A stretch of 1,983 nt of DNA, from NCBI RefSeq assembly GCF_044324875.1, contig NZ_CP172192.1. The stretch is one strand, 5' to 3'. Of the stretch, positions 1-1,983 are shown piece after piece; position 1 is the first letter of the stretch; every line of letters starts with the position of its first letter. Below the pieces are notes generated by a model that was not told the origin of the DNA, made no database searches, and saw nothing but the letters and a program-made list of their open reading frames with translations. This DNA comes from Escherichia coli. Lineage in GTDB: Bacteria; Pseudomonadota; Gammaproteobacteria; Enterobacterales; Enterobacteriaceae. The position numbers and the translations under genes were made by a program.

Positions 1-33
1 TGCGCGGTCCGACATTCCCACATCCTGTCCCGA
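1..33 (-). repeat. Inverted-repeat arm, proximal 33 bp (reverse complement of 289..321), truncated by the window start
   Basis: Exact 33/33 reverse-complement match to 289..321. Together with 1933..1983 it reconstitutes the full 84-bp arm if the window ends are joined. Confidence 0.95.
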
Positions 34-288
34 AAATTCCCGCCGTTTCTCGGTTTTTTGAGCGTCGCAGACCGCACGACAAACGAAACGAAGTGTAGTT
101 TGTATGAGTGCGCACTTCGTGAGATTCCCCGACTGCCAGTTTGTCGATCGCGCGGAACAGCTGTGGCACGAAAACGGCAGAATGATTTGCTGTCCGGTTG
201 CCAGAACTGCGCGCTTACGTGGAGGGCGGCGCGGCGCAAAAAACTGCCGACATTGCGCCAGTGTTCCGGTGACACAAACCCGCAGAAA

Positions 289-372
289 TCGGGACAGGAT
301 GTGGGAATGTCGGACCGCGCACGCTCGCTCAGACATTCCCCACCTGGTCAGGGCTTCGCCCCGACACCCCGC
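289..372 (+). repeat. 84-bp arm of a perfect inverted repeat (internal copy)
   Basis: Compared by eye base by base: reverse complement of 322..372 equals 1933..1983 and reverse complement of 289..321 equals 1..33, with no mismatches. Identity stops at 373 versus 1932 and at 288 versus 34. Confidence 0.95.
301..343. other. Nested stem-loop inside the repeat arm
   Basis: GTGGGAATGTC (301..311) pairs with GACATTCCCCAC (332..343), one extra C as a bulge, around a 20-nt GC-rich loop. The same structure exists in the other arm across the window junction (1964..1973 with 11..19). Confidence 0.6.
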
Positions 373-513
373 CAACGCCTCACGGCACGCGAAAAAATTC
401 CGCGTACCGCTCACCGTTCTTGAACTCGTCAAACAGAAAATCGCGGGGCCCCGCGCCTCCGGCGTGGGTTCCGATTTTGTGATTGACGACGGCACGGGGA
501 AAACGCTGGGTAT

Positions 514-568
514 GGTGGTTGGTGTCACGGAGTGAGGCCAACCACCTGCAAGACGGTTTTTTGTTGTT
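514..568 (+). other. Stem-loop followed by a T-rich tract
   Basis: GGTGGTTGG (514..522) pairs perfectly with CCAACCACC (538..546) around a 15-nt loop. TTTTTTGTTGTT (557..568) follows after a 10-nt gap. Confidence 0.3.
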
Positions 569-601
569 CACAAAATTGGGGTGAAAGTCTGTGGATGAGA
601 T

Positions 602-634
602 GGGTGTAAGTGGGTGGGGTTGGGAGGTTTTGGG
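602..634 (+). other. G-run cluster fitting a G-quadruplex motif
   Basis: GGG 612..614, GGGG 616..619, GGG 622..624, GGG 632..634 with loops of 1, 2 and 7 nt, plus extra G-runs at 578..581 and 602..604, within a GT-rich stretch 577..640. Confidence 0.3.
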
Positions 635-675
635 TTACTGAAAATCCAGCTCAAAATTCAAGCAAATCTCGCGCG

Positions 676-711
676 CGATCCTTGTATTTATACTTAAGGG
701 ATAACTCTAGG
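676..711 (+). promoter_or_regulatory. AT-rich island with a second nick-site-like motif; alternative dso or rep promoter region
   Basis: CTTGTATTTATACTTAAGGGATAACTCTAGG (681..711) is the only AT-rich stretch in an otherwise GC-rich window. CTTGTAT resembles CTTGATA, and TAAGGGATAACT resembles the TAAGGGTAACT that I recall downstream of the pC194 nick; that recollection is unverified. Confidence 0.2.
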
Positions 712-943: not shown

Positions 944-1933
944 ATGAAAAACCCTAAACTCCAGTACCTCACTGATTATTCCCCCTCTGACGCGCCCTGG
1001 GACGCACACAGAAGCGTTTCTGACGACGTGGGAGGGATTTACCTGCTTGCGGCCGAATATGAGCGCTACGGGGCTCGTATGGCCTCCTGTGGCGGTTTAC
1101 TGCGTTTCGGGTGGTCTACCCTCAAGGAAACCGGAGAAACGCGTCTGAGGCTGCGTGAGGCGCATTTCTGCCGTGTCCGGCACTGTCCTGTCTGCCAGTG
1201 GAGGCGCTCCCTGATGTGGCAAGCCCGTTTCTACCAGTCCCTGCCGCGTATCGTGGCGGATTACCCTGATGCCCGCTGGATGTTCCTGACCCTGACCGTG
1301 CGCAACTGTGCGATTGGGGAACTGGGCGAGATGCTGAACCGGATGAATGCAGCTTTTCAGCGTATGAAGGTTCGCAAGGAGTTCCTGCCTGTTCAGGGCT
1401 GGATCCGCACAACGGAAGTTACCCGCGGCAGCGACGGCAGCGCGCATCCCCACTTCCACACCCTGATGATGGTGCCGCCCTCAATGCTATCTGGTGACGG
1501 GTACGTAAAACATGCTCGCTGGGTTGAACTCTGGCGGGAGTGCCTGCGGGTCAGTTACAACCCGAATGTTGATGTCCGGGCAGTAAAACCCCGTAAGCCA
1601 AAGGATGGCGAGTCCTTAGCCTGCGCGACCGCTGAACTGGTGCGCGGCGCAGTGGCCGAAACCCTGAAATATTCCACGAAGCCGGCTGACATGGTGGCCG
1701 ATCCTGAATGGTTCCTCGAACTGACCCGCCAGACGCACAAGCGCCGCTTTGTGGCGACCGGCGGCGCACTCAAAGACGTGCTGAAACTCGATCAGGAAAC
1801 CGACGCCGACATGGTGATCGGGGATGATATTTCCGAGGGCGACGATGACGGTTCACGCATCGCGTTCGAGTGGAAAACCGAGGTCAGAAAGTACCGTCGC
1901 TCACCGACGAAAGATAAAACTGAATCAGGCTAG
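944..1933 (+). CDS. rep: Rolling-circle replication initiator protein, HUH endonuclease of the pC194/pUB110 (Rep_1) class
   Basis: 332-codon ORF 935..1933 in the supplied track. Translation carries motif I FLTLT (nt 1283..1297), motif II HPHFH (nt 1445..1459, the HUH metal-binding motif) and motif III ETLKYSTK with Glu four residues before Tyr (Tyr codon 1670..1672), the arrangement known for pC194 RepA. Start is ambiguous: GTG at 935 or 938, or ATG at 944 preceded by GGTGG (934..938) at Shine-Dalgarno spacing; I chose 944. Stop TAG 1931..1933. Confidence 0.9.
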   Translation: MKNPKLQYLTDYSPSDAPWDAHRSVSDDVGGIYLLAAEYERYGARMASCGGLLRFGWSTLKETGETRLRLREAHFCRVRHCPVCQWRRSLMWQARFYQSLPRIVADYPDARWMFLTLTVRNCAIGELGEMLNRMNAAFQRMKVRKEFLPVQGWIRTTEVTRGSDGSAHPHFHTLMMVPPSMLSGDGYVKHARWVELWRECLRVSYNPNVDVRAVKPRKPKDGESLACATAELVRGAVAETLKYSTKPADMVADPEWFLELTRQTHKRRFVATGGALKDVLKLDQETDADMVIGDDISEGDDDGSRIAFEWKTEVRKYRRSPTKDKTESG

Positions 1934-1983
1934 CGGGGTGTCGGGGCGAAGCCCTGACCAGGTGGGGAATGTCTGAGCGAGCG
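1933..1983 (-). repeat. Inverted-repeat arm, distal 51 bp (reverse complement of 322..372), truncated by the window end
   Basis: Exact 51/51 reverse-complement match to 322..372. Begins at the last base of the rep stop codon. Confidence 0.95.

What the first reader, a model, noticed from the sequence alone, without database searches (positions are those of the whole stretch)
1946..1952. GCGAAGC mini-hairpin motif in each repeat arm, 13 nt after the rep stop
d(GCGAAGC) is described in the literature as an exceptionally stable DNA mini-hairpin and has been noted near phage replication origins. It is present on the + strand at 1946..1952 and on the - strand at 353..359. Such a structure on displaced ssDNA could act as a priming or pause signal.
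Basis: partly seen in the sequence, partly recalled or inferred. Interest (0 to 1): 0.4.

Follow-up and report, generated by a model that had tools for sequence, protein, structure and literature searches.

The report
Hairpin tip inside a duplicated oriT
The GCGAAGC motif is real, but it is just the tip of a small conserved hairpin in a borrowed conjugative transfer origin (oriT) that this tiny, already described plasmid (pB/pBuzz type) carries twice in opposite orientations, so it is an ordinary part of a known system.

Summary
GCGAAGC lies at 1946-1952 (+) and 353-359 (-), 13 nt after the rep stop. Both copies sit in one perfect inverted repeat, so they count as a single event. The heptamer alone is not beyond chance (0.37 expected per window).

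The window is a complete 1983-bp rolling-circle plasmid. It is 100% identical to Salmonella Enteritidis pB and 99.5% identical to E. coli pBuzz. Across the circle junction the repeat arms are 84 nt long. They match the oriT that lies about 15 nt upstream of nikA/nikB in thousands of I-complex (I1, B/O, K, Z) conjugative plasmids.

The motif is the apex of the 8-bp inverted repeat GTCGGGGC-GAA-GCCCTGAC. This is the smaller of the two inverted-repeat sets of the R64-type oriT, which the literature ties to termination of transfer.

In 18 distinct related oriTs the 7 outer stem pairs never vary, but the loop does (GAA, GCA, AAA, AAC, TGC). The closest conjugative plasmids examined carry GCAAAGC, so the GAA mini-hairpin itself is not required.

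A lagging-strand priming role in rolling-circle replication has no support. Once the whole region is single-stranded, the two 84-nt arms pair with each other.

Verdict: already known, low interest.

The parts
1933..1983 (+). oriT copy A, first part (continues at 1-33 across the circle junction). The + strand is the predicted transferred strand.
   Evidence: Perfect inverted-repeat arm. The 84-nt unit is 80-99% identical to the sequence upstream of nikA/mobA-nikB in I-complex conjugative plasmids.
1..33 (+). oriT copy A, second part: proximal arm of the large inverted repeat, then the nick region ACATCCTG|TCCCG (20-32). The nick is predicted between G27 and T28.
   Evidence: The block CACATCCTGTCC is invariant or nearly so in 18 related oriTs. 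The nick position is inferred from the IncP/IncI nick-region consensus (my own knowledge; conserved motifs near nic are mentioned).
289..372 (-). oriT copy B, the same 84 nt in inverse orientation. The - strand is the predicted transferred strand.
   Evidence: The literature on pBuzz (99.5% identical) describes two inversely oriented oriTs.
1940..1958 (+). Small hairpin of copy A: GTCGGGGC-GAA-GCCCTGAC. It has an 8-bp stem with one G.T pair and a GAA triloop. The reported GCGAAGC (1946-1952) is its apex.
   Evidence: DNA folds. 7 of 8 stem pairs are invariant in 18 distinct oriTs.
347..365 (-). Small hairpin of copy B. Its apex GCGAAGC is at 353-359 on the - strand.
1965..1982 (+). Distal arm of the large imperfect inverted repeat of copy A. 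It pairs with 2-19. This corresponds to the NikA-binding-type repeat of R64-like oriTs.
   Evidence: I4, 18 nt, 83% complementary. The equivalent 17-nt repeat in ColIb-P9 is 94% complementary. Compensatory changes occur at 6 pairs across relatives.
303..340 (-). Large imperfect inverted repeat of copy B (arms 303-320 and 323-340).
   Evidence: I5.
944..1933 (+). rep, the rolling-circle replication initiator. Its stop codon TAG (1931-1933) abuts oriT copy A.
   Evidence: Pfam Rep_1, E = 7.8e-85. RefSeq 'protein rep' at record positions 84-1073, which equals window 944-1933.
34..288 (.). 255-bp segment between the two oriT copies. It is found in both orientations in deposited plasmids.
   Evidence: pVCM01 carries it inverted.
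662..704 (+). Candidate double-strand origin region of the rolling-circle replicon (not mapped here).
   Evidence: A 43-bp stretch is 95% conserved in otherwise non-matching plasmids of about 2.1 kb (H67-H70). No CTTGATA-type consensus was found. This is inference only.

Best explanation
The motif is the loop plus closing pairs of the small (8-bp) inverted repeat of an I-complex, R64-type origin of transfer. This 1983-bp rolling-circle plasmid (pB/pBuzz type) has no relaxase. It carries the roughly 84-bp oriT twice, in inverse orientation, with one copy directly after the rep stop codon.

Inferred mechanism, by homology to R64. When a B/O, K, Z or I1 helper plasmid is present, NikA binds the nick-proximal arm of the large repeat and the NikB relaxase nicks after ACATCCTG (+ strand 27|28 for copy A, the - strand for copy B). 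That strand is then transferred 5' to 3'. The last DNA to leave is, in 5'-to-3' order, the small hairpin, the large hairpin and the nick region. On this strand the small repeat reads GTCGGGGC-GAA-GCCCTGAC and folds next to the large hairpin. The two folded repeats let the relaxase recognise the end of the round and re-join the strand (termination).

The GAA triloop closed by C-G probably makes folding fast and stable, but the exact GCGAAGC heptamer is not required. Its distance from the rep stop only reflects where the oriT cassette sits in this plasmid family.

Shown here: the identity of the plasmid and of the oriT, its position next to nikA/nikB in helper-type plasmids, stem invariance with loop variability, and the predicted folds. 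Taken from the literature: mobilisation of pBuzz by a B/O plasmid, and a termination role for the two R64 inverted-repeat sets. Inferred: that the small repeat of those papers is this hairpin, the nick position, and the folding order.
For: The window is 100% identical to NC_005002.1 (pB) and 99.5% identical to MF156267 (pBuzz), with identical 84-nt arms. pB is typed 'mobilizable' although it has no relaxase.

The arm matches 3451 plasmid records. In the conjugative ones examined it ends about 15 nt upstream of nikA/mobA followed by nikB (MOBP relaxase, MPF_I).

Literature: pBuzz has two inversely oriented oriTs, lacks a relaxase, and is mobilised with high efficiency by a co-resident B/O plasmid. 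The R64 core oriT is the nick region plus repeat A. The whole inverted repeat is needed for termination in R64. [quoted passage not shown]

The transferred-strand sequence of both pB and ColIb-P9 folds into exactly two adjacent hairpins, the 8-bp one and the large one (z = -3.5 and -8.4).

The small hairpin is stronger on the predicted transferred strand (-6.6/-5.9 kcal/mol, with a G.T pair) than on its complement (-4.5/-3.6 kcal/mol, with an A.C mismatch).

In 18 distinct oriTs, 7 of 8 small-stem pairs never vary, while the adjacent large repeat shows compensatory changes at 6 pairs. Orphan oriTs on small plasmids always retain the block up to its outer edge.
Against: The primary R64 papers and the pBuzz paper could not be read. 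Equating the '8-bp repeat' with this hairpin, and the details of its termination role, rest partly on my memory and on the two-hairpin fold.

An invariant stem gives no covariation evidence for pairing. It would equally fit a sequence-specific double-stranded binding site.

pBR322/ColE1 bom carries CCATGAC, which adds a G.A mismatch to the stem (my own knowledge; the string was found in vector sequences).

In this plasmid the second, inverted oriT copy can pair with the first over 84 nt on single-stranded DNA and compete with local folding.

No experiment on this plasmid's small hairpin is known to me.
Confidence: 0.75

Rival explanations
1. First reader's idea. The mini-hairpin forms on the strand displaced during rolling-circle replication and acts as a priming or pause signal (a single-strand origin element) for lagging-strand synthesis.
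For: GCGNAGC/GCGNNAGC mini-hairpins occur at primase-dependent complementary-strand origins of G4, St-1 and alpha3, and a related CCGAAGG occurs in RSF1010 ssiA. A CTG (the E. coli primase recognition triplet, my own knowledge) overlaps the 3' side of the stem. No single-strand origin has been mapped in this plasmid. GNA loops (GAA, GCA, GTA) are the commonest apex type in the wider family.
Against: The element is homologous to oriT sequences of conjugative plasmids that do not replicate by a rolling circle. It is present on both strands, so it is not strand-specific as a single-strand origin should be. Natural variants lack the G.A loop: AAA, AAC, TGC, and TGCAC in the 2096-bp sister plasmids with the same rep. 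On single-stranded DNA the 84-nt arms pair with each other. No Rfam family matched and no terminator-like site was called at the motif.
Confidence: 0.07
2. The conserved 25-nt block is a double-stranded, sequence-specific site (protein binding, promoter or leader element of the relaxase operon). It travels with oriT, and hairpin formation is irrelevant.
For: The stem sequence is invariant rather than covarying. In conjugative and mobilisable elements the block lies 15-55 nt upstream of the first gene of the relaxase operon (NikA-like RHH plus Relaxase, or MobA_MobL). In ColIb-P9 the nikA Shine-Dalgarno sequence starts right after it.
Against: Orphan oriTs with no downstream mob gene keep the block exactly. 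In at least one element (L073) the NikA-like gene is on the other side of the nick, yet the block keeps its position relative to the repeat and the nick. Variation is confined to the 3 loop positions and the closing pair, and it preserves C-G, T.G or G-C pairing. That pattern is typical of a hairpin. The asymmetric G.T/A.C position argues against a symmetric dimer site.
Confidence: 0.13
3. It is a 3' stem-loop of the rep mRNA (a terminator or stabiliser), because it starts 7 nt after the stop codon.
For: Position directly after rep. The same arrangement is seen in all ColpVC relatives examined.
Against: No T-run follows the stem, and no terminator-like site is called there. The second copy (289-372) has no gene upstream. 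The same block occurs in thousands of plasmids unrelated to rep.
Confidence: 0.05

Closest known systems
pBuzz (E. coli, MF156267; Moran & Hall 2019, Plasmid 101:10) and pB (S. Enteritidis, NC_005002)
   Same: The window is 100% identical to pB and 99.5% identical to pBuzz, with identical 84-nt arms. It is a cryptic rolling-circle plasmid with only rep and two inversely oriented oriTs, mobilised by a B/O plasmid.
   Different: Nothing substantive. The mini-hairpin motif itself is not mentioned in the passages about pBuzz that I could read.
oriT of IncI1 plasmids R64 / ColIb-P9 (NikA/NikB relaxosome, MOBP)
   Same: Same layout: small 8-bp inverted repeat with a GAA loop, large inverted repeat, 8 nt (ACATCCTG), then the nick. 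The small-hairpin block and the nick block are identical. In the native plasmids it lies just upstream of nikA.
   Different: The large (NikA-specificity) repeat is of the B/O/K/Z type (GGGAATGTC...), not the I1 type (GCAATTGTAATA...). Overall identity to I1 is 79.5%. Here there is no nikA or nikB in cis, and there are two inverted copies.
ColE1/pBR322 bom (oriT of MOB-HEN plasmids) and some MOBQ (R1162-like) oriTs
   Same: They share the block GGGTGTCGGGGC-NNN-GCC(C/A)TGACC on the 5' side of their own recognition repeat and nick site. Examples are ...TATACTGG|CTTA and ...TAAGTGCGCC|CT.
   Different: Different nick sites, repeats and relaxase families. pBR322 has CCATGAC (my own knowledge; the string was found in vector sequences).
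d(GCGAAGC)/GCGNAGC mini-hairpins at phage G4/St-1/alpha3 complementary-strand origins and RSF1010 ssiA
   Same: Same heptamer class: two G-C pairs plus a sheared G.A pair, and it lies on DNA that becomes single-stranded.
   Different: Those are priming sites for primases. This one lies in a transfer origin, its G.A loop is dispensable in natural variants, and no primase link is shown.

Membership tests
I-complex (R64-type, MOBP) origin of transfer | Sequence homology to the oriT that lies immediately upstream of nikA-nikB in I1/B/O/K/Z conjugative plasmids | tested here: met
   98.8% identity to pECOED (IncK2/Z), 95.3% to pO113 and others, 79.5% to ColIb-P9. The match ends about 15 nt before nikA/mobA, which is followed by the relaxase gene.
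I-complex (R64-type, MOBP) origin of transfer | Conserved nick region (YATCCTG|Y type) 8 nt from a 17-19 bp imperfect inverted repeat | tested here: met
   The repeat arm ends at C19 and ACATCCTG occupies 20-27. CACATCCTGTCC is conserved in the alignment. The consensus and the 8-nt spacing are from my own knowledge. The nick itself was not mapped.
I-complex (R64-type, MOBP) origin of transfer | A second, smaller inverted repeat distal to the large one ('two sets of inverted repeats') | tested here: met
   GTCGGGGC/GCCCTGAC at 1940-1958. A two-hairpin fold is predicted for both pB and ColIb-P9. Paper title seen.
I-complex (R64-type, MOBP) origin of transfer | Functions in cis for mobilisation by an I-complex helper plasmid | not testable with these tools
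   Reported for pBuzz (identical arms) by Moran & Hall 2019, as cited. The primary paper is not held.
d(GCGNAGC) mini-hairpin | Sequence GCGNAGC (C-G closing pair, G-N-A triloop) | tested here: met
   GCGAAGC at 1946-1952 (+) and 353-359 (-). Definition taken.
d(GCGNAGC) mini-hairpin | The motif itself is conserved or selected in homologues | tested here: not met
   Homologous oriTs carry GCAAAGC, GCAACGC, GCTGCGC, GTGAAGC and a TGCAC apex. All 3 examined members of the 95.3% band have AAA.
d(GCGNAGC) mini-hairpin | Extraordinary thermal stability, or formation in vivo | not testable with these tools
   Nearest-neighbour folding gives only -5.9 to -6.6 kcal/mol for the 19-mer. The review says such parameters do not capture the mini-hairpin's stability.
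Single-strand origin (sso/ssi) of a rolling-circle replicon | Strand-specific element on the displaced strand, belonging to the replicon | tested here: not met
   It is present in both orientations. It is homologous to oriTs of non-rolling-circle conjugative plasmids. The apex differs in sister plasmids with the same rep.
Single-strand origin (sso/ssi) of a rolling-circle replicon | Supports conversion of ssDNA to dsDNA | not testable with these tools
   Needs ssDNA accumulation and copy-number assays.
Intrinsic transcription terminator of rep | G+C-rich stem followed by a T-run | tested here: not met
   No terminator-like site is called at 1940-1958 on the + strand. The stem is followed by CAGGTGGGG.
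Any Rfam RNA family | Covariance-model match | tested here: not met
   No match in the window at E <= 1.

The most novel reading that the evidence does not exclude
The roughly 25-nt block GGGGTGTCGGGGC-NNN-GCCCTGACC may be more than an R64 peculiarity. It may be an almost invariant module shared by oriTs with at least six different nick-site and repeat types, served by both MOBP (NikA-like plus Relaxase) and MOBQ (MobA_MobL) relaxases. It always lies on the 5' side of the specificity hairpin on the transferred strand, with a free triloop and a strand-specific G.T pair. It would also point to a role as a fixed recombination joint that lets the specificity repeat be swapped as a cassette, as seen in the ColpVC plasmid family.
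Probability: 0.2. Interest if true: 0.5.

Novelty: already known. Interest (0 to 1): 0.2.

Why it matters
As filed, the finding adds little. The plasmid, its two inverse oriTs and their mobilisation by B/O plasmids are published, and the small inverted repeat is a described part of the R64 oriT.

It is useful as a correction. The hairpin belongs to horizontal transfer, not to replication. It explains how a 2-kb plasmid that encodes only Rep spreads among E. coli, Salmonella, Klebsiella and Shigella by using a helper plasmid's relaxase in trans.

One by-product may deserve a specialist's look: the small-hairpin block is invariant across several oriT classes, while the neighbouring specificity repeat is exchanged like a cassette.

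Tried and rejected
- Chance test of the heptamer: it is not significant on its own.
- Rfam scan of the window and six loci carrying the block: nothing at the motif.
- Terminator and promoter scan: no terminator-like site is called at the motif, and no sigma-70-like promoter is called in the window.
- Search for a pC194/phiX-type CTTGATA nick consensus to fix the displaced strand: none on the + strand. The double-strand origin and the displaced strand therefore remain inferred.
- Covariation test of the small hairpin: uninformative, because 7 of 8 pairs never vary. Only the closing pair varies: C-G, T.G, and G-C in a few distant hits.
- Reading the primary papers (Furuya & Komano 1997, 2000, 2003; Moran & Hall 2019): not held.
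- Literature string searches for the block: only vector sequences were found.
- Genome-wide pattern scan. About 35 chance matches are expected for 17 fixed bases in 298 Gb (my estimate). Many hits in non-enterobacterial assemblies are 0.4-1.7 kb contigs that look like small enterobacterial plasmids. I therefore do not claim a cross-phylum distribution. Only the hits next to mob genes are used.
- Assembly artefact as the source of the inverted repeat: rejected, because more than 100 independent records share the structure, including experimentally studied pBuzz.

Full report
**Observation.** GCGAAGC is at 1946-1952 on the + strand and at 353-359 on the - strand. The rep ORF ends with TAG at 1931-1933, so the motif begins 13 nt after the stop. 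Shuffles of the window give 0.37 matches on average, and 6 of 200 shuffles reach two. The two copies are not independent. They lie in a perfect inverted repeat, 322-372 with 1933-1983 and 1-33 with 289-321. One independent heptamer in 2 kb is unremarkable.

**What the window is.** Megablast shows that the window is a complete circular plasmid. It is 100% identical over 1983 bp to Salmonella Enteritidis plasmid pB (NC_005002.1) and to an E. coli plasmid. It is 99.5% identical to E. coli pBuzz (MF156267). The replicon type is ColpVC, and it is typed 'mobilizable' although it has no relaxase. The only convincing gene is rep (Pfam Rep_1, E = 7.8e-85). Because the molecule is circular, the two repeats join across the 1983/1 junction into one 84-nt perfect inverted repeat. 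Copy A is 1933-1983 plus 1-33, and copy B is 289-372.

**What the repeat arms are.**
- The 84-nt arm matches 3451 plasmid records.
- In the large conjugative records examined, the match ends about 15 nt upstream of nikA (annotated mobA in some), which is followed by the nikB relaxase gene. These plasmids are IncI1, IncI-gamma/K1, IncK2/Z or B/O, with a MOBP relaxase and MPF_I. This is the position of the oriT in these plasmids.
- Identity is 98.8% to pECOED (K2/Z), 95.3% to a band of 514 records, and 79.5% to ColIb-P9.
- The literature states that the 1982-bp pBuzz carries two inversely oriented oriT copies, has no relaxase, acquired the oriT of the B/O plasmid p838B-R, and is mobilised by it with high efficiency.
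- The plasmid and the nature of its repeat arms are therefore already known.

**Anatomy of one oriT unit, 5' to 3' on the predicted transferred strand.**
1. GGGGT.
2. The small inverted repeat GTCGGGGC-GAA-GCCCTGAC (1940-1958).
3. CAGGT.
4. A large imperfect inverted repeat (1965-1982 with 2-19).
5. ACATCCTG (20-27).
6. TCCCG.

The nick is predicted after G27, from the IncP/IncI nick consensus (my own knowledge). The finding's heptamer is the two innermost stem pairs plus the triloop of the small repeat. Folded as DNA, this strand of pB and of ColIb-P9 forms exactly two adjacent hairpins, and the base of the large one pairs CAGG with the CCTG of the nick region. ColIb-P9 has a 17-nt repeat with one mismatch. 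The small hairpin contains a G.T pair on this strand and an A.C mismatch on the complement. Its energy is -6.6/-5.9 kcal/mol on this strand and -4.5/-3.6 kcal/mol on the complement.

**Comparative evidence.** I assembled 24 unique related oriTs and aligned 18 distinct ones. They came from conjugative plasmids, from orphan copies on small Col-type plasmids, and from ColpVC sister plasmids.
- The block G-TGTCGGGG....CCCTGAC and the nick block CACAT-C-TG-CC are invariant, while the large repeat between them diverges strongly.
- In the pair counts, 7 of 8 small-stem pairs never vary. The closing pair is C-G in 16 sequences, T.G in 1 and unpaired in 1. The large repeat has compensatory changes at 6 pairs.
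- All variation in the small element sits in the loop and closing pair: GAA, GCA, AAA, AAC, TGC, a T.G closing pair, and TGCAC in the 2096-bp sister plasmids.
- All three members of the 95.3% B/O/K/Z band that I read (pO113, pSH15sh104, pMTY14697) have GCAAAGC, not GCGAAGC.
- The stem therefore matters and the exact mini-hairpin heptamer does not. An invariant stem neither proves nor disproves pairing.

**Mechanism.** The R64 core oriT is the nick region plus repeat A, the NikA site. The whole repeat is needed for termination. [quoted passage not shown] The only two repeats in this roughly 90-bp region are the large one and the 8-bp one, so I infer that the small hairpin is the second set. From memory, that paper calls it an 8-bp repeat; I could not read it. 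The most likely function is therefore a hairpin on the transferred strand that, together with the large hairpin, lets NikB recognise the end of a transfer round and re-join the strand. The position 13 nt after the rep stop only reflects where the oriT cassette sits. All ColpVC relatives examined start an oriT with the same block right after rep, even when the repeat and nick are of another type.

The literature basis is real. GCGNAGC and GCGNNAGC mini-hairpins are described at G4, St-1 and alpha3 complementary-strand origins and near RSF1010 ssiA. A role in lagging-strand conversion of the rolling-circle replicon is not supported, for five reasons.
- The element comes from plasmids that do not replicate by a rolling circle.
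- It occurs in both orientations.
- Its G.A loop is dispensable in nature.
- No terminator-like site or Rfam family is detected at the motif.
- When the whole region is single-stranded, the two 84-nt arms pair with each other (-178.6 kcal/mol), which would bury the -5.9 kcal/mol hairpin.

The general idea of a signal formed on single-stranded DNA survives, in the context of conjugation.

- Many hits are oriT-like, with other nick types: AYATYYTG|YCC (29), YTACCTTG (8), ColE1-type TATACTGG|CTTA (7), and R1162-type TAAGTGCGCC|CT.
- These lie 15-55 nt from NikA-like RHH plus Relaxase (PF03432) genes or MobA_MobL (PF03389) genes.
- In these oriT-like contexts the closing pair is almost always C-G (sometimes T.G, and G-C in L102). 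The loops are GAA, GCA, GTA, AAA, AAC, TTT, TTC, TCT, ATG, ATC and TGC. GNA loops are the commonest but are not universal.
- Caveats: about 35 chance matches are expected in that database (my estimate). Several hits are short contigs in unrelated genomes that look like small enterobacterial plasmids. Multi-copy repeats in rumen Clostridia and Lachnospiraceae MAGs may be unrelated.
- I found no paper text describing this block. That is weak evidence of novelty, because most of the relevant literature is not held.

**Verdict.** The feature is a known component of a known oriT in a known plasmid. Interest is low. The only mildly novel reading is that the small-hairpin block is a cross-family oriT module with an unidentified reader.

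Noticed in passing
window 34-288 (between the two oriT copies); L147 (pVCM01, NC_019127.1) 1157-1411: pVCM01 from S. Enteritidis is the same plasmid with the 255-bp inter-oriT segment inverted (record 1073-1444 matches window 372..1 in reverse at 99.5%). Both inversion isomers across the 84-bp inverted oriT copies are therefore deposited. This suggests recombination between the copies, either homologous or relaxase-mediated.
   Followed up: partly
window 1933-1983 + 1-372: On single-stranded DNA of either strand, the two 84-nt arms are predicted to pair into a long perfect stem that encloses the 255-nt segment (about -178 kcal/mol). This giant hairpin could itself matter for ssDNA-to-dsDNA conversion or for termination of transfer.
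   Followed up: partly
L141 (2058 bp Klebsiella), L142 (1934 bp Citrobacter), L143 (1787 bp E. coli), L145 (2519 bp), L146 (2096 bp): Sister ColpVC plasmids have an oriT starting with the same hairpin block immediately after the rep stop, but with different specificity repeats and nick types (ACATCTTG type, I1 type). In several of them the two inverse copies differ from each other. The repeat looks like a cassette exchanged between two conserved flanks, the hairpin block and the nick block.
   Followed up: partly
L141 + and - copies; L023, L076, L118 versus L005: Some apex loops are exact complements of others in an unchanged stem (GAA vs TTC, GCA vs TGC, AAA vs TTT). The loop appears to have been flipped, as expected from template switching within a hairpin.
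   Followed up: no
window 299-535 (+): The RefSeq 'hypothetical protein' WP_000263637.1 (record 1422-1658 of NC_005002.1) starts inside oriT copy B and has no Pfam match. It is probably a spurious ORF call.
   Followed up: partly
L034-L056, L080-L095, L025-L027, L109 (rumen Clostridia/Ruminococcus MAGs): A multi-copy intergenic repeat, often at contig ends, contains the same 22-mer: GGGTGTCGGGGCAACGCCCTGACCCGCACTCCGCAGAGTGCGGAACACCC, flanked by other hairpins. No mob genes were seen next to the two copies whose flanking ORFs I listed (L038, L081), and there was no Rfam match in those two loci. It may be an unrelated REP/MITE-like element.
   Followed up: partly
L127-L134 (Lachnospiraceae MAG Md513_bin111): Tandem units of about 63 nt each contain GGGGTGTCGGGGGTGTCCCCTGAC, which has the same stem but a G-C closing pair. 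They occur at several loci of one genome. Their nature is unknown.
   Followed up: no
L030, L097, L112, L115 (Phycisphaerae MAGs): The same hairpin block, followed by GCCCGCCGCGCAGGCG, recurs in four MAGs of one class. In the two loci whose flanking ORFs I listed (L030, L112) no mob-like ORF was evident. It is unexplained and could be a chance match amplified by shared ancestry.
   Followed up: no
H36, NZ_OK236218.1 83348-84048 (150-kb E. coli plasmid): A large plasmid carries a 90%-identical copy of window 62-693 (the inter-oriT segment, oriT copy B and the region up to the candidate origin). This suggests a pB-like plasmid fragment or a cointegrate.
   Followed up: no
L063, L075, L113, L122, L139, L066, L103, L106, L123, L124, L138: Contigs of 0.4-1.7 kb carrying enterobacterial small-plasmid oriTs appear in assemblies labelled Streptococcus, Flagellimonas, Clostridium, Micromonospora, Rhizobium, Corynebacterium, Nonomuraea and others. 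The likely cause is contamination with small E. coli plasmids.
   Followed up: no
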